From a virus, in IMG/VR virus record IMGVR_UViG_3300045988_088152, positions 23,432 through 87,431 of that record: DNA of 64,000 bases; one strand, written 5' to 3'. Position 1 is the stretch's first letter; each line of letters begins with the position of its first letter. Positions 5,265 through 60,588 of this stretch are shown piece by piece. A program made the position numbers and the translations under genes. The notes under the pieces are model-generated. The model made no database searches, had not been told where the DNA came from, and saw nothing but the letters and a program-made list of their open reading frames with translations.

Positions 5265-5819
5265 CTAGTCCACCTTAGTGGTTGTGACCTCTATGGCTTT
5301 ATTGTGCATCTGCACCTTAAGCCCAGCTGCCTCCAACCCCTCTTTCATCCATTGTTTCATCTTGCGTCTACCTATACGCTTATTCAATTCAGTCCATGCG
5401 TCACGTTGATTCCTAAATGCGCCATCGCCGAATAATGAGCCGGTTGCGCCATTATATATCAATTCAGCTAAGTACGGTCTAGCATCTTGTCCGTAAAAAT
5501 CACCAGCTAGACCAATATGTTGTCCATAACTAGAGCTATTTGGGTCTGTATTACCAATGCTCATTTTATCGGGTTTATATTTGAACTCGCCCTCAACTGT
5601 TCTTTTATTTACTACTTTTGTAGTGCCAGCTCCCCATGCTCTATAGAAATCACCAGTCCGCTCATATTCCTCTGGATTATATGCCATATACACTATATCA
5701 TGTATCGTACCGATATTTTCATCATATATCTTGTCTATGACATAGTTTATAGCTTTAGCTATAGGACTATGTAACATAACTAAGACTTCTTTATCATTTC
5801 TTGCTTGGGATAGAGGCAT
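5265..5819 (-). CDS. hypothetical protein (tail module)
   Basis: ORF track. It is packed within the operon. Its stop is TAG, followed in frame by the ATG of the RuvC-like gene. Confidence 0.55.
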   Translation of the reverse strand: MPLSQARNDKEVLVMLHSPIAKAINYVIDKIYDENIGTIHDIVYMAYNPEEYERTGDFYRAWGAGTTKVVNKRTVEGEFKYKPDKMSIGNTDPNSSSYGQHIGLAGDFYGQDARPYLAELIYNGATGSLFGDGAFRNQRDAWTELNKRIGRRKMKQWMKEGLEAAGLKVQMHNKAIEVTTTKVD

Positions 5820-6195
5820 TCTTCATCACCTCATCTACCTTATTACTAAATCTTGGTAATTCTCTTGCAATCTGCGTAATAGACTTCTGTAGAGATTCCT
5901 CATACTTGATAGCATCATAGAGTTGGAAAATATTCTCAATTCTATCATGTACTTCTTCAATAACACCCGTCTTGAGCCAATAATCATGGTCATGCGCCTC
6001 AATCTCTTCTTTTTTAAGGTCAGTTGCAAAATAGAGGATACACATATCAATGCTCTGTTGCCGCTCTGCCCATGAATTTAGCTTCTTTAGTCCATCAACA
6101 ATAGACTGAATCTGGCTATATGTTAGATACTGATTGACCTTAATACCATATTCTTTAATCTCTACTGGCTCTTTGCTCATAATATTTTCCTTCAT
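5794..6195 (-). CDS. hypothetical protein (tail assembly chaperone position)
   Basis: ORF track. It lies between the major tail protein and the tape measure. The call rests on position only. Confidence 0.5.
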   Translation of the reverse strand: MKENIMSKEPVEIKEYGIKVNQYLTYSQIQSIVDGLKKLNSWAERQQSIDMCILYFATDLKKEEIEAHDHDYWLKTGVIEEVHDRIENIFQLYDAIKYEESLQKSITQIARELPRFSNKVDEVMKNASIPSKK

Positions 6196-6586: not shown

Positions 6587-7657
6587 TTAGCCGGTTACAG
6601 TAACCTCAAAATAACCAACAACAGATGGACCATTACCGGGGTCTGCACCCTTTAGAGTTGCGGAAATATGAGCCTTACCAGCCGCCTTAGCGGTGACAAC
6701 ACCCTTAGCATCAACAGATGCAAACGTATCACCATCTTCAACAGCAAACGTAAAGTTGGCATTGTCAACCATCTTAGGTGCTTTATTGCCGTTAAACAGA
6801 ACATAACAAACAGCAGTCTGAGTCCCCTGAGCAGCTAGAGACATGTCAGCATCCTCAAATGCAATAGCTCTGACTTCGTTCTGCCACTTTGCACCAAAGA
6901 TTTCTTCAGTCATAGTGCCATAATAAGATTCGCCTTCGCAAGAATCAGTGTTATCAACTGCTAGAGCAGAGCCAGACAGAGAAACAGTAGCCGCAGAAGT
7001 TGCAGTAAGGTTAAGGTCTTGTGCGCCATCAAGCTGTAGTCTAGGAATATCAGTAATTAGACGACCAACCTTAGTTGCATTGTTCGTAGTAGAAATATCC
7101 GCATTGAACAGGTCGTTAAGAATGATGACATGAAGCTCATCTGGCACATAGTCAACTGGGATAATGATGCTATCAGCATTGGCATTCTGATAGAAATACG
7201 TCACACAATACTTCTCACCAACCGCAGCGTTAGGAATAGCCATTGTATATGCGCCAGCCGCCTCAGTAATTGTGCCAACAGTATAATCTTTCTCACTAGG
7301 AGTACGATACCAACCAATCATAGAGCCAGCAACAGCGGTTGGAGCCTGTGGTAGAGTGACCTTACCAGCAGTCTGAACAGTGAGTTCATTCTGATAAACA
7401 CCAAGACCGCCCTTCTGTAGATCGACACCAAGGTTGGCAGCAATATACTCTAGCTTAAAGCAAGAGTCAGTAATCTGAACAGTTAGACCAGAGTCATGGT
7501 AATACTTACCAATTAGTGCATTGCCCTTGCCCCCACGAATTTCTTCTGAAGAAATAGTAAAGCCAAAGGTTGACTCGGTTAGAGTCTTAGCGAAGCCGAT
7601 GATAGTCTGCCCCTTGAGTAGAATAGCATCACCAACGCCAGCTAGGAATTTTCTCAT
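6587..7657 (-). CDS. major tail protein with C-terminal Ig-like (Big_2-type) domain
   Basis: It lies upstream of the chaperone-position ORFs and tape measure and has its own terminator. The C-terminus ASVDAKGVVTAKAAGKAHISATL...FEVTVTG matches the Big_2 pattern. Confidence 0.65.
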   Translation of the reverse strand: MRKFLAGVGDAILLKGQTIIGFAKTLTESTFGFTISSEEIRGGKGNALIGKYYHDSGLTVQITDSCFKLEYIAANLGVDLQKGGLGVYQNELTVQTAGKVTLPQAPTAVAGSMIGWYRTPSEKDYTVGTITEAAGAYTMAIPNAAVGEKYCVTYFYQNANADSIIIPVDYVPDELHVIILNDLFNADISTTNNATKVGRLITDIPRLQLDGAQDLNLTATSAATVSLSGSALAVDNTDSCEGESYYGTMTEEIFGAKWQNEVRAIAFEDADMSLAAQGTQTAVCYVLFNGNKAPKMVDNANFTFAVEDGDTFASVDAKGVVTAKAAGKAHISATLKGADPGNGPSVVGYFEVTVTG

Positions 7658-7671
7658 ATAAGATTTCCTCC

Positions 7672-8496
7672 TTATTGATTTACAATATTATTTATTTGTT
7701 TTATCATATCGGAGTTGGCTTGTTTAACTATGCCATCTCCACCCATAGATTTATTGTAAGACTCAACAGATGTAACATACCCATCGAACCTGTCTTTCTT
7801 TTTCTTGTATATCCAATGCTCAAGCTCTTTAGCCTTTCCAGCATATAGCATAATAGGACGCAAGGTTGTAAATTCAACCTCTCCTGCGCATTCTTCAAAT
7901 AGTAACTGTAACGACCGCATTGTATAATGCATCAATGTTTGTTTATCAATGCCGCAGTGAGCCGTAATGATAGCCATGCGCCGCTCTAGGTTCGGCACAT
8001 TGATACCCTGACTTTTAAGCCTATCCACTTCACCCATCATCTTTTTTAAATCTGGGTCAATGTATGTGTCGTCATAATGCAGCACATTCTGATACAGTAT
8101 GATACGCTTAATATCATCAAATTGCTTGCCTGTGATTTCAAATGAATCATCAGGCGCAAGTATGCTGATTTTTTCCTTTTCATTCAGCTTGATTTTCCAA
8201 TCTGGCATACCAAGACACAATTTCAGAATATTACAGAATTTATCTAGCATCAATCCTGATTGGTCTGTAGGTAACATGACTTTAAGCAAAAAATCAAGAT
8301 AGCTCATCTGTATTATCTCAACAGAATTGAGCGCATTTTTATCTATTTGAAGAATATCACAGCTTGACAAAAAGACCTCGCTGTCATATACTGATATAGG
8401 CGTTATATCAATATGGGTCGTGTCTGATAATTTGTATGGTACTGGCTTATCGAAATAAAAATATCCCTTTTCAAGGACAGCAATGTCAATCGACAC
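7672..8496 (-). CDS. hypothetical structural-module protein
   Basis: ORF track; packed in the operon. Confidence 0.55.
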   Translation of the reverse strand: MSIDIAVLEKGYFYFDKPVPYKLSDTTHIDITPISVYDSEVFLSSCDILQIDKNALNSVEIIQMSYLDFLLKVMLPTDQSGLMLDKFCNILKLCLGMPDWKIKLNEKEKISILAPDDSFEITGKQFDDIKRIILYQNVLHYDDTYIDPDLKKMMGEVDRLKSQGINVPNLERRMAIITAHCGIDKQTLMHYTMRSLQLLFEECAGEVEFTTLRPIMLYAGKAKELEHWIYKKKKDRFDGYVTSVESYNKSMGGDGIVKQANSDMIKQINNIVNQ

Positions 8497-9064
8497 AATC
8501 TACCACCTTGCCAGAATCTCCAACATTGACCGCCATATATAGCTGAACACCTGTAAATGTCTTATTGTTACCAATAGCTGACTTAGCAGCACTATATCGG
8601 CTCATATCATCTAAAAACATGAGCTTGCCTACGCCGCCTACTTCTGCGCCATTAAGCAAATATAGCATACAGTGAATGAACAAATCGCCGCGATTGACAG
8701 GAATACCGTTATATTCAACTAGACTCATCTGACCACCATATAGACAATCAAACGCATAGACTACTGTGCTAGTATATAGCTCAGAAGCATGGATATAATA
8801 TTGATATATCTTAACAATCTGCTTAGATTCAGCCATAGCATCCTCAATTAGATTAGTTAAAAATACACTATATGTATCCTGTTTTCCTTGTGCCCATACT
8901 AACTTCATCTTCTGTTGAAATGTAAGCGGTTCGTGACTCAATGCCTTATAGTCCTTATATGCCAGCATCTTCCAAAATATCTCAGCAATAGGGTCGGTCG
9001 ATTTTGCTAGGTATACCATAATATTATATGGTATTGTCGGTAAACGACTTAATGAGTTATACAT
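8486..9064 (-). CDS. hypothetical structural-module protein
   Basis: ORF track; overlaps its neighbours. Confidence 0.55.
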   Translation of the reverse strand: MYNSLSRLPTIPYNIMVYLAKSTDPIAEIFWKMLAYKDYKALSHEPLTFQQKMKLVWAQGKQDTYSVFLTNLIEDAMAESKQIVKIYQYYIHASELYTSTVVYAFDCLYGGQMSLVEYNGIPVNRGDLFIHCMLYLLNGAEVGGVGKLMFLDDMSRYSAAKSAIGNNKTFTGVQLYMAVNVGDSGKVVDCVD

Positions 9065-17408: not shown

Positions 17409-17646
17409 ATTTCGCCCTCCTTTCTTTGTTTTATTGTTTATATATTAGAGCAGTTAGATTATGGACTTCATTAACGTATGCCAAAGTTCATTGAGCTACT
17501 TATCCTCCCTATCCGCTCGTTTTATATTTTTGAGTGTTTTTATTTTCGGCTTTTGACTAAGCCTAAGTTGGAACTTGGATTCCACACAACCCTAATAGTA
17601 CCTCCACGACAACACACCAACATAGTAGCCGCTTCATAGGCAAATA

Positions 17647-19491
17647 TCAATAGACTAATTGAATGGAGTCTATATCAAACTCATCTTCTTGCAACTGTTG
17701 TTGCCATGCGTTCTCAATCAAATCAATAATATAGTTACCATACATGATAGTCACAATTCTATCCTTTGTTCCTGTGCGCGGTTCTTCCAATTTGATTTTA
17801 TCCTGCTTGATAACCGTCTTTAGATTAACTGCCTCTATAACCATCATATCAGTTTGACCATACGGCTCAAGCTGATTAGCTAATTCTTCAGCAGTGTATT
17901 GATAATATTCTCCACTATCTGTTAGCTCGTTCTGATAGTCTTGCATAGAAATAAGAAATTTCATATTGTTAGTTTCAAGCTGTTTGCGTAATGACAACCA
18001 ACCACTACTGTTTAATTCAGGTGTCGCAATAACAGGTATTAAGCAAGGTACTGCGTTCTTATCAACCGTTCTACTATGATAATCGTCAACTTTAGCTTGA
18101 GATACTACTTGGTATTTATCAGCAAGCCCAAATCCACGAGAATCCCATCTTGAGCCTAAATCTGGACGTAGTAATGGTTCTGTCAAATGATTAAATATGA
18201 CTTCTCCACCACTTCTTCCATCGAATGCGGCATAATCAGCGTCATAGACCCACCATAAATATCTAAATCTATCAGACGCGCCTATTGTATCAGAAGCATC
18301 ATGCCCCTCTATATAGTCAACGTGTCGTTCAAATCTATTCTTTTTGCTATTCCAATGCGCCGACATTAACGTTATAATGGTATTGTCGTTTTTTGTGCAA
18401 CCAGTGGTGTTCGCAAAAGCAATATCCATGACTACTAACCGTATCTCGTCCTCTTTCTTTTCTGGAAAGTCAGGTTGTTCACCAGCAAAAAATTGTAATG
18501 CAGTGGGCGGACGGAAACAATGCTCAATGATTTGATTCTCTTTGAAAGATTTTAGATTAAAGAACGCATCATCGCCCTCTGAAATCATCTCGTTCAAATC
18601 TTCCATTCTAAAGTCCATTTCGCCGCCAGCCTTACCATTCCAATAATCAGCCCACGTCTTAAAACCATTATCAATAGCCATAAATATATCACCGGCAAAA
18701 ATATTACATCTTACTTTGGTGTCGGTAAATATACGAGTAAATGTCTTTTTGAATAATAGCCAAAACCACTCAAACTTATATCTAGCAGATGTGATATATA
18801 TATGTTGACATTCCTCTTTCCAACGTGGATTATTACCATATACAGGATTACTAAGATATTTGGCTTGCCTTGGATGCGCCATCTTCTCAAAGACGGAATC
18901 AACCATGCCTTTTTTCAACAAGCGGGCTTCTTCATATGTAAGAATTGTTGCTCTTGGGCCACGAGAGCTATCTTGACACGGTAATACACGCAAAGTAGAA
19001 CCGTTAAGCTTGTTCTCTATTCTATAACCATCTTCTGGTTTAGTAATAACCAAATATTCATGCTCATACATATATAAGAGATATGGCGATAATTTTTTAA
19101 TCAATTCATCCCTTATTTTATCTTCAACCATCTTGTTTGCCTGTGCAACAGTTGATGATGTAATTACCGCCTCTGTGTAAGGATAAAGATTCATCTTTAC
19201 AATATTGCCTAGACCCACAATGAAGGTTTTGGATAAGCCACGACAACATATTGCAAAAAATACATCGGATATGCCCATCAGATATATCATTATCATCTGA
19301 AATGGGCGCAACTTAATACCAAGAACTAAATCAACATATATATGCCAATTCCGGCGTAACTAGAATAAAGTCAGCCACTCTATAGCATTTTCCTCTTTCT
19401 TTGCATCTTTCATTGCGTTTTCTTTTGCTTTTGCCGTAATTAGGTGGTTTCCAAGGAACTTGCGTCTCAAGCCCCCCATCTGACTTTTCAT
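17647..19491 (-). CDS. terL: terminase large subunit, with one in-frame TAG at 19362-19360
   Basis: ORF track 17647..19311 has a Walker-A-like CRGLSKTF and a nuclease-type MDIAFANTTG. The same frame is open upstream to an ATG at 19491 with an SD (GGTGGTGA). Only one TAG interrupts it. The conserved LGIKLRPFQ helix spans the ORF-track start. Confidence 0.7.
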
Positions 19492-19507
19492 TCTATATCA
19501 CCACCCA

Positions 19508-20335
19508 TCATCTCTTTTGGTCTGAGGGCAAATCTGGATATTCGCGCCCGCCCCCAACCAAATTGCGACAACATCTCAAAATATCTTTCCATGTCGGCTC
19601 AAATCCGCTGAAATCCTTATATTTATTCAAATCCTCACATTCGCATGGTTTTGTATTCTCAATATTCCATGCCATGCGCTCTATGAATTTTTCAGTATCG
19701 CTCTGCTTATTTTCCTTAAATTGGTCTAGTTTTAGTACCTTCATCCATTTAAGAATTTCATCACCAGCATCTTTGTCTGTAGGGTCTTTGAATTTACGCA
19801 AATGAGCGCGACATAGATTTAGATAAGCCATCTCTTTAGCCGTGTCCATATCAAGGATTTCTGCTGTATATCGTTCAAAAATATCATCGAGCCACTGATA
19901 TTCCTGTTCTTCATAATCAGTGCCCCACTGACGATTCCATCTCGCTTTAAGCGCTACCTCATCCGTTTCGCCTTTAGCAACATCACCCAAATCCTTGAAA
20001 TTAGACAACTCCATATCACTATCCCATACGCCTGTTAATTTATCAGGCGATGTAGATAGATATGTATGATACAACATAAATAGACTAGGCTTTTTGCCTT
20101 TAGCTGCCTTTTCTAGGGTGTCAAGACAAGCAGTATATTCAGCGCGTCTCATAGGAATGCCAGTCTGCATACAGGTTGACCATAATGCCGCGCCTTGGTC
20201 TTTAGTGGATTCAAGAGCTTGCTTATATAGCTCAGTCACACATGACTTGCATGGCTTAATATATTCGCCCGTTTTGATTGGGCTTTTATAGAATTGGCTA
20301 TCTTGCTTTTCTTTGCCACAATATGGGCAAAACAT
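19508..20335 (-). CDS. hypothetical Zn-ribbon protein (small terminase position)
   Basis: ORF track. It has an N-terminal CPYC...CKSC and lies directly upstream of terL. Confidence 0.35.
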   Translation of the reverse strand: MFCPYCGKEKQDSQFYKSPIKTGEYIKPCKSCVTELYKQALESTKDQGAALWSTCMQTGIPMRRAEYTACLDTLEKAAKGKKPSLFMLYHTYLSTSPDKLTGVWDSDMELSNFKDLGDVAKGETDEVALKARWNRQWGTDYEEQEYQWLDDIFERYTAEILDMDTAKEMAYLNLCRAHLRKFKDPTDKDAGDEILKWMKVLKLDQFKENKQSDTEKFIERMAWNIENTKPCECEDLNKYKDFSGFEPTWKDILRCCRNLVGGGREYPDLPSDQKR

Positions 20336-20379
20336 ATTCTCATTCCTTTCCGTTCCGTTTATTTTCCTATAAATATGAC

Positions 20380-21143
20380 GAAGCAGCCAAGATTGCTCTT
20401 AGCTGCTTCGTATTTGTCAAAGTACAATATTCAGTTAAACAACAGTTCCCATTGAGTTGGGCTTATTGTAGATATGAGCCGATTGGCTCTGACCACCATC
20501 CTTTCTTTAATTATGCTTCGGATAAACCAGTGGATAATTCAAGAGAATAGTGACCTCCTTTCGGATATTCATAGCCGCCAATGAGTAGTAGCGACAGGCA
20601 GTTACAGTATATACCTAGATACAAATATTTCGTTAAAGCTCCATTTATCAAGCGCCATCGGGCATCTAGCGCCACTCACTGTTATGTTTTATTATTTTAC
20701 AAGTGCGGCATATTCTTACCGTGTCGTCCGGTGTTATGGTGCAATGGGTCTTAGATGCCATCACATCTCGCCTTTGCATCGTTCTAATGGCGATGCGGTT
20801 TTCATTGTTGTCATATGGTATACCGCAAACCTTCGATTAACGTCCACATATTGCCGAAAGACAACCCGGTTCTATGCTTCATACGCTCGTATAACACACC
20901 TGTTGCTATACGCCTATCGTCAAGGATAGGATTTTGCAAGAGCCGCTATACACGGCTCTGAAATCTCCTTGTACACATGGCACATGAGATAAATTGTCAT
21001 ATCTCGCCACAGCATATGACACGCTCGTATTAGGCTCTGCATTGGTGCAGATTCACGGCGAAGATATTCAACTCTACTAGGTGGGTCAATCGCCCCACAA
21101 GCATGATTAACGCAGCCGTAGCTATCACCTAACAGAGAATGAA
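20380..21143 (-). ncRNA. candidate large structured noncoding RNA (strand uncertain)
   Basis: About 760 nt with no credible ORF. GC is about 50 percent in 20701-20760, against roughly 35-38 percent in the flanks. Many perfect 5-8 bp hairpins and a long-range GGCATCTA/TAGATGCC pairing are present. Confidence 0.4.
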
Positions 21144-22343
21144 TCAATTCAAAATATATTTCTTAGTCCACGTCTTTTGTCCATCTTCAAACAACATAAG
21201 CAATGCACCAGCTCTTGACAACTTGCGACATCTCTTGCTATAATCATCAATGCCAACAATGGACGGACATTTAATTACTTCTTTCTCAGTATTCAAGCCA
21301 ATACCAACTGACTGTTGCTCAAGATGATGAAAATGCCCAAGTAGTAGGATATCAATATCAATCTGATGATAGTCCTCAAAGAACGCGATTTCTCTAGTCA
21401 CATCCTTTGTGTCATCGCCATGATATGCTAGGATATTCACGCCTTGAATCGTCTTGAACCCACATTCTGCATAAGGCGCAACCTCAATGTTGGGATTGTC
21501 TTTGAGCCGCAACCGTACAATCTGCGTGATAATCTTGGCAATATTATCTTCTGGCAGGTCGCCCTTCTTCATGTTCAATGAACGAATTTGACTATGATTA
21601 CCACCAACGGCAATATATTCAATCGGCACTTGTAGTCGCTCACTTAGCTCAACTAGCCACTGACTGATATATTCGGCATATTCCATGGAACAATCTACAA
21701 TTCCAGCCTTGAGCTTCATAAGGTCAGACATATGTAGTATTCCCTGAATGGAATCCCCCATATCGAACACAACTAGGCGGCTAAATGACGATACTGAATA
21801 TGCGTCATCTTCAATGCTGTTCATTAACTTTTCCATTCGCGTCTTGAATACATCAGGATTGTACACATTGACCTTCTCGCCAAACAATGAATCCATATCA
21901 ATCATTGTTCCATAATGCTCATCGCCAATGCACAACACACCAACTTGTTCTTTGATTGGGTCTGGCTCAAATTTGCGGCTAAACTTGATTGGCTCAAGCC
22001 GATTGATAGCAGAAACAATTTCTTCATTGAGCATATCATGTCGCGCCACTTCGCGCTTATTCGCTACATACTCAAGATTTTCTGTGCGAAGTTTAAGACG
22101 TGATTTCTCTAGTTCCTGTTTAGCCTCTCTGAGCTGTGATAGAATATCAACGTCTTTTTCATCTGATTCACAATCGTCTGCACCATTTAGCATATTGCGA
22201 ACAAATACAGCACAACGCCGTAGATATTCCTCGCTCCAGACGCCCCTATAATCTTCACCAAGACAACGTGCCGTCCATTCCTGCAAGTCAATTAGCTTAC
22301 TATCTAGCAGCTCAGTCGCTTGTTGTATCTTTTGTAGATTCAT
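21144..22343 (-). CDS. calcineurin-like metallophosphoesterase
   Basis: Motifs GDSIQG, GGNHSQ, YHGDD and LLGHFHH occur in the canonical order. Confidence 0.8.
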   Translation of the reverse strand: MNLQKIQQATELLDSKLIDLQEWTARCLGEDYRGVWSEEYLRRCAVFVRNMLNGADDCESDEKDVDILSQLREAKQELEKSRLKLRTENLEYVANKREVARHDMLNEEIVSAINRLEPIKFSRKFEPDPIKEQVGVLCIGDEHYGTMIDMDSLFGEKVNVYNPDVFKTRMEKLMNSIEDDAYSVSSFSRLVVFDMGDSIQGILHMSDLMKLKAGIVDCSMEYAEYISQWLVELSERLQVPIEYIAVGGNHSQIRSLNMKKGDLPEDNIAKIITQIVRLRLKDNPNIEVAPYAECGFKTIQGVNILAYHGDDTKDVTREIAFFEDYHQIDIDILLLGHFHHLEQQSVGIGLNTEKEVIKCPSIVGIDDYSKRCRKLSRAGALLMLFEDGQKTWTKKYILN

Positions 22344-23356: not shown

Positions 23357-25930
23357 CTACTGTTTTAACATGTCTCCCGTGCGGACAGGTGGAGCTTCAC
23401 GCGATTCAGTACGCCGCTGATTATCCGCCTTCTTATAGCATTCCTCTGAGCAATAATGCTGACATACATCGCGCGGCTTGAATCGCTTGCCGCAAATGGG
23501 ACAAATTGGATTGAGTTGCGCCGTATTGATTCTCAAATTTTCTACAATCGTCCAACCAAAACAAGCCCACAGCATTTTCTTATTACTTGATTTTTTGACC
23601 GTATATAAATAAGCAACTAAGCTATTAACCACAACATCTAGCGGCTCATTGCTATACTCCACTATATCTTGTGTTATGCGGCGATATTTATACAAATCGT
23701 CTTCATTGATATGTGGGTCATCGCCATAATCGAATCGGCGCTGATTCCATATCCACCAATTATACCTCTCTATGATTGGTGAATTTTCTCTAGTGGTATA
23801 ATCAACTGATTTATTTATCAGCATCGTCCAGTCAAATTTTCCAATCTTGTTATTATAGCGGATTCTGGAAGCAGGGATTTTTGTCGATATACGATTCATT
23901 GTGGAATTGTTAGGAGGTTCTACTTGGGTATCTGGGTCTTTGTCTTTGGCATATTGAAAGAAATTTGGAACACGAGCTTTTGTATATTGCTTGATAGTGT
24001 TATTGATTTGTTTCGGTCGTTCTGGCAGCCATTGCGTCTTAGCGCAATCTATAACAGCGTTGTTCTCGAAACAAAGCCATTTTACTACATCTAGCTCTTC
24101 TTGTGTGATTTCGCCACTGTTCCATATTTTTGTAATATTGTTACTAACCGGTCCTATATTGCCTTTAGTATAAGCATTGACCATTCCATTATACATGCTG
24201 TCTGGATTTAATAAGCCGCCCTTAGCTTTTTTGAGGTCATATGCTAGAGGAACTATATCTTGCATATTGTGTTTGGCGCAACTTGTCAACGTTCTATCTT
24301 TTACTACTAGAGCCTTATCCCCATCTACGTCAAACATAAGGTAACGTGAAATAAGGTCGTGGCAACTAGTATATATACACTTAGTTCCACCAAACCAATA
24401 ATCAAGCTCTAAGTTGCGCCGATTCGTCCTAATTGCCCATTCTCGATATAGGTGCGGCGAACGTAAGCAAGCCAATGTTTCTTCGTCTCGATATTGATTT
24501 GTATATACATCGCCATCTGCAAGCAGTCCTTGTGGGTTTTGTTGTCCTAAAAATAACCATTCGCAAAACGCATATAGATCGGGCGCTAAGAATAGATATT
24601 TTCCATTTACTCTAAGCCGCCCACCTTTGGCTTGTTTAACTAGGCTTTTTTTAGTCTGTTTCAAAATTTCTCGGTTATATGAATCTTTGAACAGCTCAGG
24701 ATATATCAGCAACGCCTCTTGCATAGCTGATTTATACCGGTTATTCTCTGTTGCGCCAAGTAGCCTCATAGTAACTTGATAATCATTACCAACATCATCA
24801 ATCTCTTGCGCCGTCTTAGAGATGATGCGGTCAATCTCATTATCTGTCATATCGCTCAATGTCTGCAACATCTGATAGTTGATGCGGCTCTTTGGAATAT
24901 AAGGCTCCTCTATATTGCAATAACAAGCATTGCATCCAAAATTTTTGAATCGCGCCTTATAGCAATCCCACGAATCATAAAATTTCCATAGCTTGAATTG
25001 GCTCTTTGTGAATATATACCGTATATCTTCCTCTATAATTTTATGCTCATTTCCATAAATATCTGTTACAGTTGTCTCCCCACCACATTTCTCTTTGATA
25101 AACTTGTCAAATGGAAATGTAACAAGCAATCCCTTTACCCATGGCATACGTACCATTCTTGTTGTTTCATCAAGCATAATACCGCATCCGTCCATATGAG
25201 GAATAACCGTATTTGTCATCTCGCGTTTAATTTCATACGTAACACCATCAATATGGTCAACCAATCCCGGAACAGCCGTTTCCCAATCATCTACCACAAT
25301 TGATTTGTCAATGTCAAAATCTTGCCAAACATCTGTAGCAGAGTTCATAAGCGCCAAATAAGCAAGGAACTTGTTTTGATTCATGCCTCCCCGCTCATTG
25401 ATTTCATCTATGGTCAAGCCGCACATCAATTTTTGCTCAATGCGCTTAAACGACGATTCTTTGACAAATACAGCTCTTTTCGTTCTTATCTGTCCTGCTG
25501 ATGCAGTAAGGAACACATATTTTTCACCATTGTAAATAAATCCTTGACGAACTAGATTATTAAATACTTGAAAGAAAAATACGTTGATAATGAACAGCTC
25601 ATCTGTCAATTTGAATGGCTCAAGACCTAAGCTGCGTGTTAAATCGGATTCAAATAGATTAACAACCGTCTTATCTGTCACAGCATCTTGTCGCAATTCT
25701 CTAGTTACGTTTCGATTTACTGCATCATCAAGCAATTCAGATAACCGTGCCTTTTCTTTTTTGAGTAAACGATTTACCGACTTGATGCGCCAATCTGGCT
25801 TTCCGTCATCCTTCCATCGCTTACGCAACGAATATAACCGAACGAGCCGAGTATGTAATATCATTTCGTTATCGTCATAAAATGCGCTAGTATCTATTGA
25901 ATGCAAATAAATTTGCGTCTGTAGGCTCAA
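23357..25930 (-). CDS. YonO/RDR-like single-subunit (two-barrel) RNA polymerase
   Basis: 857 aa. It has LMFDVDGDKALV (a DxDGD metal-binding motif), an upstream ASAGQIRTKRAVFV resembling the RDR-family SxSQxR block, and a C-terminal CPICG...C..C zinc ribbon. The TTG start is coupled to the upstream small ORF. Confidence 0.6.
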   Translation of the reverse strand: MSLQTQIYLHSIDTSAFYDDNEMILHTRLVRLYSLRKRWKDDGKPDWRIKSVNRLLKKEKARLSELLDDAVNRNVTRELRQDAVTDKTVVNLFESDLTRSLGLEPFKLTDELFIINVFFFQVFNNLVRQGFIYNGEKYVFLTASAGQIRTKRAVFVKESSFKRIEQKLMCGLTIDEINERGGMNQNKFLAYLALMNSATDVWQDFDIDKSIVVDDWETAVPGLVDHIDGVTYEIKREMTNTVIPHMDGCGIMLDETTRMVRMPWVKGLLVTFPFDKFIKEKCGGETTVTDIYGNEHKIIEEDIRYIFTKSQFKLWKFYDSWDCYKARFKNFGCNACYCNIEEPYIPKSRINYQMLQTLSDMTDNEIDRIISKTAQEIDDVGNDYQVTMRLLGATENNRYKSAMQEALLIYPELFKDSYNREILKQTKKSLVKQAKGGRLRVNGKYLFLAPDLYAFCEWLFLGQQNPQGLLADGDVYTNQYRDEETLACLRSPHLYREWAIRTNRRNLELDYWFGGTKCIYTSCHDLISRYLMFDVDGDKALVVKDRTLTSCAKHNMQDIVPLAYDLKKAKGGLLNPDSMYNGMVNAYTKGNIGPVSNNITKIWNSGEITQEELDVVKWLCFENNAVIDCAKTQWLPERPKQINNTIKQYTKARVPNFFQYAKDKDPDTQVEPPNNSTMNRISTKIPASRIRYNNKIGKFDWTMLINKSVDYTTRENSPIIERYNWWIWNQRRFDYGDDPHINEDDLYKYRRITQDIVEYSNEPLDVVVNSLVAYLYTVKKSSNKKMLWACFGWTIVENLRINTAQLNPICPICGKRFKPRDVCQHYCSEECYKKADNQRRTESREAPPVRTGDMLKQ

Positions 25931-41120: not shown

Positions 41121-41134
41121 ATGCAATTTAACGC

Positions 41135-41163
41135 TTGACAAATAAAATCAAGTATGGTATAAT
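41135..41163 (+). promoter_or_regulatory. sigma-A type promoter driving the long noncoding unit
   Basis: TTGACAAAT-N14-TGgTATAAT. Confidence 0.7.
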
Positions 41164-41677
41164 TGAGAATGTAAAGATGATGGTGCTGTATGAACGGATG
41201 TTCCATACTACAGTGATTGCATATGAGTAGGTTACAGCTAAGTGGAGTTTGAGGAACAGCCATCATTATATAGGGAACGTGCGTAAGATAAATGAGATAA
41301 GCATGAATGGCATTCTTAAAGGAGCGACTGTGAGCGCCGAATGCTGAGTAATGCCAAGTAGGGCACACTGGTCAATCTGTTCGGCATAATAAAAGGGATT
41401 GGGATTGACAAATATAAAATGACACATCGGAAAGACGATGATAATATCCGACAAGATTTGAAGATAACCGTCAAATCTATATCACATCTCACTGGCATAG
41501 AGACAGGGTAGAGTTTGAGACATCACCTGATAACGAGTAGACATTTGCCGTAGCTGGCAATAGTGTTCCATTGGCACAAAGACACAATGGTAAATGTGAT
41601 ATAAGGGCAAAATGACAGCATTCACAAGCTGATGCTAGAAATAGCTATGAGGTAGGAAGTCGGCTTGAGATAAATAT

Positions 41678-41754
41678 GGCTCAGTACCCCAATCGGCAGA
41701 GGGAGCGGATTCAAAATCCGTAAAGTGTGGATTCGAATTCCACCTGAGCTACCA
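41678..41754 (+). tRNA. class I tRNA, anticodon CAA by canonical reading
   Basis: Hand fold. Acceptor GGCTCAG/CTGAGCT. Anticodon arm GCGGA-TTCAAAA-TCCGT. 5-nt variable loop. T arm GTGGA-TTCGAAT-TCCAC. ACCA is encoded. Confidence 0.65.
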
Positions 41755-59973: not shown

Positions 59974-60588
59974 ATGAAATATAATGTAGAGCTGATAAGA
60001 TGTAAACGTAGCAATCCAGAATATCAAGAAATTAGAGATAGGCATTATATACCGAATCATGGTACATTTGGTCAGCAAATTCATTATCTTATAAAATTAG
60101 ATGGTGAGACAGTTGGGATTATTTCTGGCGCATCTGCTGTATATGCTGTAAAAGCCAGAGATGATTATTTCGGCTTGACAAAAGAAAATAAGAGGGTCGC
60201 GCTTAACTCAATTATTAACAATACTGTGTTTCGGTTGGAAAATAACTTGCCTAATCTTGGTACGCAGATTTTAGCTATGTGGCGCAAACAAATCGCCGCA
60301 GATTGGGAAACGCAGTATCATGTGCGTGTTCATGGATTTGAAACATTTGTTATTGAGAACGAAACAAGAAAAGGATGTATGTATAAAGCTGATAATTGGG
60401 AGTATATAGGACAAACAAAGGGCAGTACAAAGACGCATAATGGTATGCAAAATAAATCAAAGAGGCTAGATACAGAGATTAAGCTAATATATGTTAAGAA
60501 AATTAAGGGAACGCATCTTTGTACCGAGTATACACCAACATGGCGATTAAGCGCAAAAGAAAAGTCAATGCTGAAGCAAGGAGGTTAA
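59974..60588 (+). CDS. DUF4338 (DruA-like) domain protein
   Basis: RHYIPNHGTFGQQIHYLI...ARDDYFGL...INNTVFRL...LPNLGTQILAMWRKQIAADWETQY...GFETFV...GCMYKADNWEYIGQTKG tracks the DUF4338 consensus as I recall it (RYHYLG...RD.fIGW...VNN.RFLIL..VPNLAS..L....DW...YG...LETFVD...G.CYRAANW..vG.T.G). Confidence 0.6.
   Translation: MKYNVELIRCKRSNPEYQEIRDRHYIPNHGTFGQQIHYLIKLDGETVGIISGASAVYAVKARDDYFGLTKENKRVALNSIINNTVFRLENNLPNLGTQILAMWRKQIAADWETQYHVRVHGFETFVIENETRKGCMYKADNWEYIGQTKGSTKTHNGMQNKSKRLDTEIKLIYVKKIKGTHLCTEYTPTWRLSAKEKSMLKQGG

What the first reader, a model, noticed from the sequence alone, without database searches (positions are those of the whole stretch)
20340..21143. ~0.75 kb GC-enriched, hairpin-dense noncoding block at the early/late junction
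There is no credible ORF between the metallophosphoesterase stop (21144) and the first late gene start (20335). The only ORF-track entries are Cys/His/Arg-rich nonsense. Local GC rises to about 50 percent in an otherwise AT-rich genome. The block holds many perfect short helices (minus-strand reading): GTCATAT/ATATGAC, CCTATC/GATAGG, GCATCG/CGATGC, AGAGCCG/CGGCTCT, CTGCA/TGCAG, GTGGG/CCCAC and CC-GAAA-GG. A long-range GGCATCTA/TAGATGCC pair encloses about 85 nt. It ends in a 10-bp hairpin (ACGAAGCAGC/GCTGCTTCGT, 20378-20411) just before the late-gene RBS. It sits where transcription would switch from the host-promoter-driven RNAP operon to the promoter-less late module. Candidates are a large structured ncRNA, an antitermination or processing element, or the entry site for the phage RNAP. 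A short motif GTAGAGTTGAA (about 21067-21080, minus strand) resembles GGAGTTTGAGGA and TAGAGTTTGAGA in the 41.2-41.5 kb ncRNA. I consider that resemblance weak.
Basis: partly seen in the sequence, partly recalled or inferred. Interest (0 to 1): 0.75.

Follow-up and report, generated by a model that had tools for sequence, protein, structure and literature searches.

The report
Modular small-RNA array before phage late genes
The 0.8-kb gap is not one big RNA but a string of small, independently folding RNA modules (one of them a "drum" RNA of unknown function) in front of the late genes of an SPbeta-like phage, and other orphan RNA families sit at the same spot in related phages.

Summary
The observation mostly holds. 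Window 20336-21143 (minus strand) has no ORF in genetic codes 11, 4, 15 or 25. All the listed helices exist. The block folds better than shuffles (z = -5.4). GC is 43%, not about 50%.

It is not one large ncRNA. In 26 related phage contigs the same intergenic region runs from 207 to 1509 nt. It is built from collinear cassettes that are independently present or absent. The window carries A, B, S, Hp, drum, D1, D2 and E.

- One cassette (20791-20887) is a truncated drum RNA (RF02958). It scores 37.8 bits here, and orthologous copies pass the 43-bit threshold. Its helices covary.
- Cassette S is shared with the YonO-transcribed noncoding leader of Bacillus phage SPbeta.
- Cassette E (20336-20569) is the only one present in every relative. 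It ends in a terminator-like hairpin that is conserved by compensatory and non-homologous replacement, 40 nt before the late-gene ATG.

In other YonO-RNAP phages the same junction carries DUF3800-VIII, skipping-rope, ROOL or tRNA genes.

Best reading: a transcribed accessory-RNA array, plus a conserved leader and insulator, ahead of the late operon. Transcription and function are inferred, not shown.

The parts
21064..21143 (-). Module A: an 80-nt three-way-junction fold. A 12-bp closing helix encloses two hairpins. It starts directly at the exonuclease stop codon.
   Evidence: Fold z = -3.30. The 17 distinct homologues keep the 32-pair consensus, with 9 of 544 non-canonical cells and one compensatory pair. 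Mapped in 22 of 26 intergenic regions.
20996..21063 (-). Module B: two hairpins around conserved CCGUGAAU and GAGCCUAAUACGAGC.
   Evidence: Present in only 9 of 26 relatives. Three compensatory pairs, for example GUCAUAU/AUAUGAC changing to GACGU/ACGUC. Fold z = -1.76.
20932..20995 (-). Module S: hairpin CUCAU-GUGC-CAUGU-GUAC-AAGGAG (20965-20988) followed by the AGAGCCG/CGGCUCU hairpin. This motif is shared with the SPbeta late leader.
   Evidence: Two copies lie in the SPbeta yonN-yonK gap (L014 7653-7629 and 7594-7570) and one in L112. The stem covaries: CUGC/GCAG, GUAC/GUAC, GUGC/GUAC. nhmmer E = 3.4e-5 to SPbeta. Fold z = -3.81.
20888..20931 (-). Module Hp: two short hairpins, CCUAUC/GAUAGG and CGUAUAGCA/UGUUAUACG. 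In some relatives a DUF3800-VIII RNA sits inside the first hairpin.
   Evidence: Fold z = -3.37. In L004, L029 and L039 the loop of CCUAUC...GAUAGG is replaced by a DUF3800-VIII RNA (RF03075, 50.3 bits in L004).
20791..20887 (-). Drum-like RNA: a truncated variant that lacks the distal hairpin of the Rfam model.
   Evidence: RF02958 scores 37.8 bits here (gathering score 43; E = 2.8e-5 in the local search, 0.0016 window-wide). Orthologous copies in L003, L004, L005, L010 and L011 score 43.6-44.9 bits. On 33 distinct drum sequences, 83.9% of cells pair against 61.6% in shuffles, and 17 of 19 pairs change on both sides.
20692..20790 (-). Module D1: a linker with the GCAUCG/CGAUGC hairpin and conserved AAGGCGAGAU...CUAAGACCCAU. 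It is the least well defined part.
Evidence: Variable sub-cassettes D1a, D1bx, D1by and D1z. Fold z = -1.19.
20570..20691 (-). Module D2: a roughly 122-nt candidate new structured motif. Helices Pa, Pc, Pd and Pe, plus two loop-to-distal pairings (Pb, Pf) that would be pseudoknots.
   Evidence: Three sequence types (D2a, D2b, D2c) keep the same frame with different helix sequences. Examples: Pb CCGG/CCGG, CUGGU/ACCAG, CUCG/UGAG, UGCUUG/CAAGUA; Pc GUAU/AUAC, GUCC/GGAC; Pa GGCGC/GCGCU, AACGCU/GGCGUU. L039 has two copies in tandem. No Rfam match.
20444..20569 (-). Module E1: the conserved part of the leader. It holds GAAAGGAGG (20554-20562), a long imperfect hairpin with a nearly invariant apex (20509-20543), the hairpin GAGCC/GGCUC and the hairpin CCCA/UGGG.
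   Evidence: Present in all 26 relatives and in the more distant L069 and L122. About 95% nucleotide identity even where the flanking proteins are 34-72% identical. Compensatory changes: GAGCC/GGCUC to GAGGC/GCCUC, GUGGC/GCCAC and UGCCC/GGGCA; CCCA/UGGG to CACA/UGUG. Fold z = -2.91.
20336..20443 (-). Module E2: an intrinsic-terminator-like hairpin (20378-20411, 15 bp, tail CAUAUUUAUA), followed by the RBS of the late gene.
   Evidence: Found by the terminator scan. Fold z = -4.76. Three compensatory pairs. The hairpin is inverted as DNA in L008. In L010, L122 and L069 it is replaced by unrelated hairpins with a U tract at the same position.
17529..17642 (-). Canonical full-length drum RNA between the terminase large subunit and portal genes. 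It lies outside the finding and is the second drum copy of this phage.
   Evidence: RF02958, 55.9 bits, E = 9.3e-8. Found at the same position in the relatives whose fetched flank reaches it.
23357..25930 (-). YonO-type single-subunit RNA polymerase gene. It gives the context that defines the phage type.
   Evidence: Pfam RdRP PF05183, E = 1.6e-9. PHROG 8308, E = 4e-248. 45% identical to SPbeta YonO.
21144..22343 (-). Exonuclease (metallophosphoesterase) gene, the upstream neighbour. It is a YonJ-like protein.
   Evidence: PHROG 284 'exonuclease', E = 1.9e-47.
19508..20335 (-). First late gene (275 aa), directly upstream of the terminase large subunit gene.
   Evidence: PHROG 3314. Homologues precede the terminase gene in Enterocloster and Thomasclavelia YonO phages.

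Best explanation
The block is a noncoding array of autonomous small structured-RNA modules, read on the minus strand together with the genes. It sits at the early/late junction of an SPbeta-like phage that encodes a YonO-type RNA polymerase. It has two layers.

(1) A variable accessory layer (21143-20570: A, B, S, Hp, a truncated drum RNA, D1, D2).
- Each module folds on its own.
- In close relatives each module is independently present, absent, swapped for another (DUF3800-VIII, X1, M1) or duplicated, always in the same order.
- In most relatives a consensus sigma-A promoter (TTGACA-17-TGTGATATAAT) directly after the exonuclease stop codon drives the array.
- The window lacks that promoter, so here the array would be made by read-through from the RNAP-HU-exonuclease operon.

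(2) A constant layer, module E (20569-20336), present in every relative.
- It has an SD-like GAAAGGAGG.
- It has a long hairpin with an invariant apex and two small hairpins.
- It has an intrinsic-terminator-like hairpin 40 nt before the late-gene ATG.

Inferred mechanism:
- Host RNA polymerase coming from the early operon, or from the array's own promoter, makes the small RNAs and stops at the E2 hairpin. This insulates the late genes.
- YonO would read through into the late operon. In SPbeta it starts more than 1.2 kb upstream of the first late gene and transcribes through an equivalent noncoding stretch.
- The variable small RNAs (drum and the others) most likely act in trans on the host or on the infection. 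Their turnover between near-identical phages suggests an accessory or arms-race role.

Shown: noncoding nature, modular architecture, conserved structures, drum identity, homology of S with SPbeta.
Inferred: transcription pattern, termination and read-through, trans action.
For: Noncoding and structured:
- No ORF in any tested code.
- The block folds better than shuffles.

Modular architecture:
- The cassette map of 26 homologous intergenic regions shows collinear modules with presence/absence variation. Lengths run from 261 to 1509 nt, and 207 nt in L069.
- nhmmer finds these modules only at this position in the fetched loci.

Structure per module:
- Compensatory changes occur in A, B, S, drum, D2 and E.

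Drum identity:
- Rfam hits.
- Covariation test.

Array promoter in relatives:
- A perfect extended -10 sigma-A promoter lies right after the exonuclease stop in 17 of 26 regions.

Terminator:
- Detected by the scan.
- Conserved by compensatory change, by inversion and by non-homologous replacement.

SPbeta analogy:
- SPbeta has a 1.68-kb noncoding gap between yonN and yonK.
- That gap holds a DUF3800-VIII RNA at 47.5 bits and two S-motif copies.
- The published YonO start site is bracketed by the primer-extension primers at L014 8357-8552. That is 1.2-1.4 kb upstream of yonK, so the whole stretch is a YonO-made leader (PMC5467207).

Same junction in other YonO phages:
- Drum in Clostridium phage D-1873.
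- Skipping-rope 0.5-0.8 kb after yonO in L072, L075, L077, L078, L079 and L081.
- ROOL plus tmRNA plus tRNAs in L092.
- tRNAs in L066, L074 and L090.
- Every hit of my drum, skipping-rope and DUF3800-VIII models lies downstream of yonO on its strand. None lies in the upstream 10-kb flanks.
Against: - There are no expression data. Neither the transcripts, the stop at the E2 hairpin nor read-through by YonO is shown.
- The window itself lacks the dedicated promoter.
- The hairpin's U tract is interrupted (CAUAUUUAUA).
- The YonO promoter is unknown, so E might be a promoter rather than a leader.
- The window's drum copy is below the Rfam threshold. It lacks the distal hairpin and the adjacent terminator that are typical of the family.
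- The relatives are closely related (most cassettes are 80-100% identical), so the covariation counts rest on few independent events.
- Thermodynamic z-scores of drum, D1 and D2 taken alone are not significant.
- Several YonO phages have no large gap at this junction: Enterocloster PMBT24 and L070, L071 and L097. The array is therefore dispensable for late transcription.
- No DUF3800 gene was found among the window ORFs tested.
Confidence: 0.6

Rival explanations
1. Cis-acting control region only. The block, essentially module E, holds the YonO late promoter or RNAP entry site, or an antitermination or mRNA-stabilising leader. The upstream modules would be passengers without a function of their own.
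For: - E is the only universally retained part. It is about 95% identical even where the flanking proteins are 34-72% identical.
- Its hairpin apex is nearly invariant, including in the divergent L069.
- Relatives with a 207-264-nt gap still need late expression.
- GAAAGGAGG at the 5' edge of E equals, from my memory, the Bacillus cryIIIA STAB-SD 5' stabiliser.
- SPbeta late transcription starts in the equivalent noncoding region.
Against: - No similarity was found between E and the SPbeta start-site region.
- The upstream modules show compensatory changes.
- They include members of RNA families found in unrelated contexts (drum, DUF3800-VIII).
- In relatives they have their own strong sigma-A promoter. 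Passengers would not be expected to show these features.
Confidence: 0.22
2. One large ornate ncRNA of ROOL, GOLLD or OLE type, or a group I or group II intron, spans the whole 0.8 kb.
For: - The size, GC enrichment and hairpin density fit, and the whole-region fold has z = -5.4.
- ROOL does occur downstream of yonO in another phage, L092.
Against: - No Rfam 15 family other than drum matches on either strand, even at E up to 10.
- Relatives delete, swap or duplicate individual modules. They function with only 207-261 nt.
Confidence: 0.04
3. Recombination debris. The gap is a hotspot where mobile cassettes, homing-endonuclease genes and remnants of palindromic elements accumulate. The hairpins would have no RNA function.
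For: - The region is strongly mosaic.
- L004 and L013 carry ORFs with HNH-type features at the same site, judged by eye and not confirmed by a family search. L013 also has a duplicated exonuclease 3' end.
- In contigs with the window-type exonuclease, the promoter-M1 cassette is flanked by AATTGAT direct repeats.
- The E2 hairpin is inverted in L008.
Against: - Cassette order is fixed, and cassette boundaries coincide with fold boundaries.
- Helices are kept by compensatory changes.
- Two cassettes are members of curated RNA families.
- The S motif is conserved as far as Bacillus SPbeta, whose YonO is only 45% identical.
Confidence: 0.1
4. A DNA-level signal such as the pac site or a replication origin, placed just upstream of the packaging genes.
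For: - The block lies directly upstream of the gene pair that precedes and includes the terminase.
- It is rich in inverted repeats.
Against: - In SPbeta-like phages the genome opening point (pac) maps between yonR and yonP, upstream of yonO and not at this junction (doi 10.1101/2021.11.22.469490).
- The fold signal is stronger on the gene strand.
- G-U pairs and strand-specific covariation fit RNA.
- Most of the block is dispensable in relatives.
Confidence: 0.03
5. A hidden protein-coding gene read in an alternative genetic code or with recoding.
For: None beyond the length of the gap.
Against: - Each gene-strand frame has 13-20 stops in code 11. Those frames have no stop-free stretch longer than 80 codons in codes 4, 15 or 25.
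- Neighbouring genes use TGA as a stop.
- Indels between relatives are whole cassettes of arbitrary length.
Confidence: 0.01

Closest known systems
drum RNA motif (Rfam RF02958; Weinberg et al. 2017, PMC5737381)
   Same: Module 20791-20887 aligns over the full model. It has the conserved UGAAG, GGA, GGUU, ACC and GAAAA stretches and helices P1-P3, all of which covary. A canonical copy lies 3 kb away at 17529-17642.
   Different: The copy in the finding scores 37.8 bits, below the gathering score of 43. It lacks the distal hairpin (16 model positions are replaced by 1 nt) and has no terminator directly after it. It is embedded in a multi-module array rather than standing alone. No DUF3800-type gene was detected nearby.
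Noncoding leader of the SPbeta late operon (the yonN-yonK gap with the 'unannotated non-coding RNA' downstream of the YonO start site; Forrest et al. 2017, PMC5467207)
   Same: The phage type is the same (YonO, HU-like protein, YonJ-like exonuclease, terminase, portal). Both have a long noncoding, hairpin-rich stretch between the RNAP operon and the late genes. They share the S hairpin motif. Both contain RNAs of the drum / DUF3800-VIII group.
   Different: In SPbeta the gap (1.68 kb) lies before yonK-yonJ. Here it lies after the exonuclease gene. Apart from S there is no sequence similarity. SPbeta has DUF3800-VIII where the window has drum. Transcription by YonO is shown for SPbeta only.
DUF3800-VIII and skipping-rope RNA motifs (RF03075, RF02924; Weinberg et al. 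2017)
   Same: Both are orphan small RNAs that the 2017 study linked to drum through their neighbouring genes. They occupy the same junction in relatives. DUF3800-VIII is found in L004, L029, L031, L039, L043, L022, SPbeta and L112. Skipping-rope is found in L072, L075, L077, L078, L079 and L081.
   Different: Neither is present in the window itself. The DUF3800-VIII site is occupied here by a plain 6-bp hairpin (20913-20930).
ROOL and GOLLD large ornate phage-associated RNAs
   Same: They are phage-borne and noncoding, often lie near tRNAs, and their function is unknown. ROOL occupies the region downstream of yonO in L092.
   Different: Those are single RNAs of 580 nt and more with long-range architecture. 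The window block has no match to them and is separable into cassettes.
Cis-acting leader elements: intrinsic terminators used as insulators, the cryIIIA-type STAB-SD 5' stabiliser, and lambda nut / HK022 put antitermination RNAs
   Same: Module E has an exact GAAAGGAGG, conserved stem-loops and a terminator-like hairpin between an upstream transcription unit and the late genes.
   Different: None of these functions was tested. The resemblance to STAB-SD and to put/nut rests on my recollection of those systems. No sequence or structure match to any Rfam leader family was found.

Membership tests
drum RNA (RF02958) | Score at or above the Rfam gathering threshold (43 bits) | tested here: inconclusive
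   The window copy scores 37.8 bits (E = 2.8e-5 in the local search, 0.0016 window-wide). Orthologous copies of the same cassette, 87-99% identical, score 43.6-44.9 bits in L003, L004, L005, L010 and L011.
drum RNA (RF02958) | Helices P1, P2 and P3 conserved with covariation | tested here: met
   On 33 distinct sequences, 83.9% of cells pair against 61.6 +/- 1.4% in shuffles and 22-46% in slid controls. 17 of 19 pairs change on both sides. The alignment was fitted to my own model, so it leans towards the structure. P3 exists as GCGGU/ACCGC, CAGCAU/AUGCUG and UCAGGA/UCCUGA.
drum RNA (RF02958) | Conserved unpaired nucleotides (UGAAG, GGA after P2, GGUU, ACC, GAAAA) | tested here: met
   All are visible in the cmscan alignment and in alignment A3.
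drum RNA (RF02958) | Distal hairpin (model positions about 83-98) | tested here: not met
   16 model positions are replaced by 1 nt in the window copy. The hairpin is present in the copy at 17529-17642.
drum RNA (RF02958) | Rho-independent terminator directly downstream (Weinberg 2017) | tested here: not met
   No terminator-like site on the minus strand lies next to 20791. The next one is 20411-20378, about 380 nt downstream.
drum / DUF3800-associated RNAs | A nearby gene of the associated protein type (DUF3800, PF12686) | tested here: inconclusive
   No DUF3800 appears among the 25 listed of 32 Pfam families hit by 57 window ORFs. None appears in the ORFs scanned singly. ORFs under 100 aa and the 7 unlisted families were not seen.
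DUF3800-VIII RNA (RF03075) | Match to the covariance model | tested here: not met
   No hit in the window with Rfam or with my model R3. It is present at the homologous site in relatives and in SPbeta.
Large ornate RNAs and introns (ROOL, GOLLD, OLE, group I and II) | Match to the family model, and a single indivisible fold | tested here: not met
   No hit at E up to 10 on either strand. The cassettes are independently deletable.
Intrinsic (Rho-independent) terminator | GC-containing stem followed by a U tract, conserved in position | tested here: met
   15-bp stem with 7 GC pairs, then a tail with 5 U in 8 nt. Compensatory pairs are present, and unrelated hairpins with a U tract sit at the same place in L010, L122 and L069. 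Actual termination was not tested.
SPbeta-type late-operon noncoding leader | Lies between the yonO operon and the late packaging/structural genes on the same strand | tested here: met
   Gene order is YonO, HU-like, 187-aa protein, exonuclease, gap, 275-aa protein, TerL, portal.
SPbeta-type late-operon noncoding leader | Sequence homology with the SPbeta leader | tested here: met
   Only the S motif is shared: 24-25 nt plus the following hairpin, with nhmmer E = 3.4e-5. The rest is not alignable.
SPbeta-type late-operon noncoding leader | Transcribed from a YonO-dependent start site | not testable with these tools
   This needs RNA 5'-end mapping with and without YonO. The YonO promoter consensus is unknown (PMC5467207).

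The most novel reading that the evidence does not exclude
The orphan RNA families drum, skipping-rope, DUF3800-VIII and possibly ROOL may be functionally tied to phages that use a YonO-type single-subunit RNA polymerase. They are interchangeable occupants of one genomic slot at the start of the YonO-dependent late transcription unit. Two readings are open:
- They take part in the early-to-late switch, for example as RNA cofactors, decoys or regulators of YonO or of host RNAP.
- They are phage-borne mimics that neutralise host defence nucleases of the DUF3800 (RNase H-like) type, much as pseudo-ToxI RNAs neutralise ToxN.

Module D2, and perhaps A and S, would then be further undescribed members of this functional class.
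Probability: 0.15. Interest if true: 0.85.

Novelty: new variant of a known kind. Interest (0 to 1): 0.6.

Why it matters
Drum, skipping-rope, the DUF3800 RNAs and ROOL have had no known function since 2017. I found no functional study in the searchable literature.

This locus shows that they are interchangeable cassettes at one defined place in SPbeta-like phages. That place is the noncoding stretch between the YonO RNA-polymerase operon and the late genes. SPbeta itself carries a DUF3800-VIII RNA and the shared S motif inside its YonO-transcribed leader.

This turns an open question into an experiment in a tractable system, B. subtilis with SPbeta: delete or swap the cassettes and then assay late transcription, burst size and sensitivity to defence systems.

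It also yields candidate new motifs (D2, A, S, E). In addition, it suggests how late genes are insulated from host RNA polymerase in phages whose own polymerase lacks the domains used for hairpin-dependent termination.

Tried and rejected
Searches for related DNA and hosts:
- blastn of the block against 50,697 phage records found no match.
- The module-E 20-mer against the genome collection found no match. The YonO search there gave only distant or fragmentary hits, so the host was not identified.

Searches for protein clues:
- Pfam on the flanking proteins gave nothing except RdRP for YonO.
- The search for a DUF3800 gene in the window found none.

Attempts to locate the YonO promoter:
- I tried to place the SPbeta YonO start site exactly, but could only bracket it with the published primers.
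- I compared that region and the whole SPbeta gap with the window. Only the S motif is shared. An 8-mer, ATATCTAC, shared with E is at chance level.
- Sigma-70-type promoter matches inside the block are not above expectation: 5 found against 3.4 +/- 1.8 expected.

Readings considered and rejected:
- A 10-codon mini-ORF in E1 (TTG...TAA after AAAGGAGG). The three substitutions seen in it are all non-synonymous and the stretch is otherwise invariant at every codon position. That fits a nucleotide-level constraint rather than a protein-level one.
- A short ORF after the AAGGAG of S. Its start codon is not conserved (ATT, TTG, CTG).
- The pac-site idea, by analogy with SPbeta.
- The link to the 41-kb RNA through GTAGAGTTGAA. 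It is a helix strand of module A.

Limits of my own models and methods:
- My drum model found no hits in YonO phages below about 59% YonO identity, except D-1873. Drum is therefore not a universal YonO companion.
- MAFFT/RNAalifold alone could not recover the D2 fold, because indels shift its helices. I derived it with a helix search between anchored windows.
Full report
CONTEXT

The window comes from an SPbeta-like phage. ORF 23357-25930 (minus strand) is a YonO-type single-subunit RNA polymerase. It matches Pfam RdRP at E = 1.6e-9 and PHROG 8308 at E = 4e-248, and is 45% identical to SPbeta YonO. Downstream on the same strand come:
- an HU-like protein;
- a 187-aa protein;
- a YonJ-like exonuclease (21144-22343);
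- the gap in question;
- a 275-aa protein (19508-20335);
- the terminase large subunit;
- a drum RNA;
- the portal gene.

OBSERVATION

What holds:
- The gap 20336-21143 has no credible ORF. On the gene strand the longest stop-free stretch is 73-80 codons under codes 11, 4, 15 and 25. TGA is used as a stop by the neighbouring gene.
- The terminal hairpin is a 15-bp stem with a U-rich tail.
- The 808-nt RNA folds with z = -5.4 against dinucleotide shuffles on the gene strand, and z = -3.3 on the other strand.
- 200-nt windows inside the block average z = -1.66. The flanking genes average -0.37 +/- 1.04.

What does not hold:
- GC is 43.0% against 38.5% for the window, which puts it in the top 4.4% of windows. 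It is not about 50%.

WHAT IT IS

Relatives and their intergenic regions:
- Thirteen IMG/VR contigs encode a close relative of the exonuclease.
- Twelve more contigs share a 20-mer from the 3' part of the gap, although their exonuclease is only 34-46% identical.
- In these 25 contigs, and in two more distant ones (L069, L122), the homologous intergenic region is 207 to 1509 nt long.

A cassette map shows one collinear order:

P0 (a consensus extended -10 sigma-A promoter) - M1 - A - B - X1 - DUF3800-VIII - S - Hp - drum (three variants) - D1 - D2 (three variants, two tandem copies in L039) - E.

Each cassette is independently present or absent.
- The window has A, B, S, Hp, drum, D1, D2 and E, but not P0 or M1.
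- Only E is in every contig.
- L006, L008, L013 and L069 have essentially nothing but E.

This rules out a single large RNA, and it rules out coding sequence.

KNOWN FAMILIES

Scanned against Rfam 15 on both strands, the window gives only tRNA, a canonical drum RNA at 17529-17642 (55.9 bits) and a sub-threshold drum match at 20791-20887. That match scores 37.8 bits against a gathering score of 43.

The orthologous cassette reaches 43.6-44.9 bits in five relatives. I built a covariance model from 12 drum copies and aligned 36 hits (33 distinct):
- 83.9% of cells form standard pairs. Shuffles give 61.6 +/- 1.4%, and slid controls give 22-46%.
- 17 of 19 pairs change on both sides.
- The alignment is fitted to the model, which favours the structure. 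Even so, P3 exists in three unrelated sequence versions and the inner P2 stem switches between CCG/CGG and CUC/GAG.

The window copy lacks the distal hairpin of the Rfam model. It also lacks the adjacent terminator that Weinberg et al. describe (PMC5737381). I file it as a truncated drum variant.

In L004, L029, L031, L039, L043 and L022 a DUF3800-VIII RNA (RF03075) sits just upstream of drum. In L004, L029 and L039 it lies inside what is, in the window, the plain CCUAUC/GAUAGG hairpin.

OTHER MODULES

- A (21064-21143) is a three-way junction. Fold z = -3.3. Its 32 pairs show 9 of 544 non-canonical cells.
- B has three compensatory pairs.
- S (20932-20995) is a hairpin, CUCAU-stem-CAUGN-stem-AAGGAG, followed by a second hairpin. 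The same motif occurs twice in the SPbeta yonN-yonK gap and once in L112. The stem sequences differ: CUGC/GCAG, GUAC/GUAC, GUGC/GUAC.
- D2 (20570-20691) has no Rfam match. Its three sequence types keep helices Pa, Pc and Pd and two loop-to-distal pairings, Pb and Pf. Partner sequences differ between types. For Pb they are CCGG/CCGG, CUGGU/ACCAG, CUCG/UGAG and UGCUUG/CAAGUA. It is a candidate new pseudoknotted motif. The statistics are weak, because the helices had to be found with an anchored search rather than on a fixed alignment.

MODULE E (20336-20569)

It is about 95% identical across contigs whose flanking proteins are 34-72% identical. It holds:
- GAAAGGAGG (20554-20562);
- a long imperfect hairpin whose arms vary with compensation and whose apex (20509-20543) is nearly invariant, even in the divergent L069;
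- a hairpin that occurs as GAGCC/GGCUC, GAGGC/GCCUC, GUGGC/GCCAC or UGCCC/GGGCA;
- a hairpin CCCA/UGGG, or CACA/UGUG;
- the terminator-like hairpin.

The terminator-like hairpin shows three compensatory pairs. It is inverted as DNA in L008. In L010, L122 and L069 unrelated hairpins with a U tract replace it at the same position.

COMPARISON WITH SPBETA AND OTHER YonO PHAGES

SPbeta has a 1.68-kb noncoding gap between yonN (HU) and yonK-yonJ.
- Their primer-extension primers bracket it to L014 8357-8552, which is 1.2-1.4 kb upstream of yonK.
- That YonO-made leader contains a DUF3800-VIII RNA at 47.5 bits and the two S motifs.
- A weak skipping-rope-like match (28 bits, my model only) lies right after yonN.

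Among 80 YonO loci fetched with 10-kb flanks:
- My models find drum in the window clade and in Clostridium phage D-1873.
- They find skipping-rope 0.5-0.8 kb after yonO in six loci, and 4.8 kb after it in one.
- They find DUF3800-VIII in five IMG/VR loci.
- Rfam on 12 diverse loci adds ROOL plus tmRNA plus about 25 tRNAs (L092), three skipping-rope RNAs, and tRNAs.
- Every hit of my three models lies downstream of yonO on its strand, and none lies in the upstream flanks. There is no formal control set of phages without YonO.
- Some YonO phages have no large gap here, so the array is accessory.

MECHANISM

Shown:
- a noncoding, gene-strand-structured, modular array with one drum member;
- a constant 3' module ending in a conserved terminator-like hairpin;
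- a dedicated sigma-A promoter in 17 of 26 relatives, but not in the window.

Inferred:
- Host RNAP makes the small RNAs, from P0 or by read-through from the exonuclease operon, and stops at the hairpin.
- YonO reads through into the late genes, as it does through the SPbeta leader. Forrest et al. note that YonO lacks the flap domain used for hairpin-dependent termination.
- The variable RNAs act in trans. Their turnover between near-identical phages points to an accessory and possibly anti-defence role.
- DUF3800 proteins are RNase H-like and occur in retron type VII and Cas12a-associated systems. No DUF3800 gene was found in the window.

RIVALS

- E as the YonO promoter or as a pure cis leader: cannot be excluded.
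- One large RNA: rejected.
- Recombination debris: unlikely given the covariation.
- pac site: unlikely, because in SPbeta it maps between yonR and yonP.
- Hidden coding sequence: rejected.

NOVELTY

The drum match itself is a new, truncated member of a known family. Three things are not described in the literature I could search:
- the cassette organisation;
- the candidate motifs D2, A, S and E;
- the co-location of drum, DUF3800-VIII, skipping-rope and ROOL at the YonO early/late junction.

Noticed in passing
window 17529-17642 (-): A canonical full-length drum RNA (RF02958, 55.9 bits) lies in the 238-nt gap between the terminase large subunit and portal genes. The relatives whose fetched flank reaches that far have it at the same position. 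This copy is the conserved one; the copy inside the finding is optional.
   Followed up: partly
window about 41130-41677 (+): A consensus sigma-A promoter (TTGACA...TGGTATAAT) is followed by about 500 nt without an ORF, running into tRNA-Leu (41678-41754). There is no Rfam match. The stretch contains GGAGUUUGAGGA and UAGAGUUUGAGA, and the SPbeta leader has GAGAGUUUGAGA (L014 about 7940-7950). This may be another unclassified phage ncRNA.
   Followed up: no
L092 15026-21459; L081 13173-13270; L072 13231-13321; L077 13234-13323: Other YonO-encoding viral contigs carry known RNAs just downstream of yonO. L092 has ROOL RNA (397.7 bits), a tmRNA and about 25 tRNAs. L081, L072 and L077 have skipping-rope RNAs.
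   Followed up: partly
L014 (SPbeta) 7410-7475 (-) and 8711-8836 (-): The SPbeta yonN-yonK gap holds a DUF3800-VIII RNA (47.5 bits), probably the 'unannotated non-coding RNA' of Forrest et al. 2017. It also holds a weak skipping-rope-like match directly after yonN (28 bits, my model only, not seen by Rfam at E up to 0.1).
   Followed up: partly
L004 IGR 126-630; L013 IGR 110-910 (locus coordinates about 5320-5830 and 5290-6090): ORFs of 168 and 267 aa that look like HNH/homing endonucleases are inserted right after the exonuclease gene. Each has its own promoter-like sequence and a structured leader. L013 also has a duplicated exonuclease 3' end after the insert.
   Followed up: no
L001, L005, L007, L010 IGR 1-200: The 196-nt promoter-plus-M1 cassette is flanked by AATTGAT direct repeats in contigs that have the window-type exonuclease. 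This suggests insertion or deletion by short-homology recombination. M1 itself is a roughly 157-nt structured RNA with no Rfam match.
   Followed up: no
window 19312-19507: There is a 196-nt gap between the 275-aa gene and the first possible start (TTG) of the terminase ORF. The PHROG match to the terminase starts at profile position 71. A 43-aa ORF (19360-19491) lies in the gap. The terminase N-terminus may be split, frameshifted or mis-started.
   Followed up: no
L049, L052, L056, L057, L064, L097, L100, L105, L121, L122 (YonO match spans 3.5-3.8 kb instead of 2.57 kb): In several relatives the yonO gene is interrupted by an insert of about 1 kb. This resembles the split yonO_1/yonO_2 annotation in some Bacillus SPbeta-like phages and is probably an intron or a homing-endonuclease insertion.
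   Followed up: no
L066 1082-1136 (-); L111 4189-4257 (-): A type I hammerhead ribozyme (34.6 bits, at threshold) and a pistol ribozyme (69.5 bits) lie upstream of yonO in two other YonO phages.
   Followed up: no
window 59974-60588 (+): A 204-aa protein matches the Druantia DruA family (PF14236, E = 3e-21), which is unusual for a phage gene.
   Followed up: no
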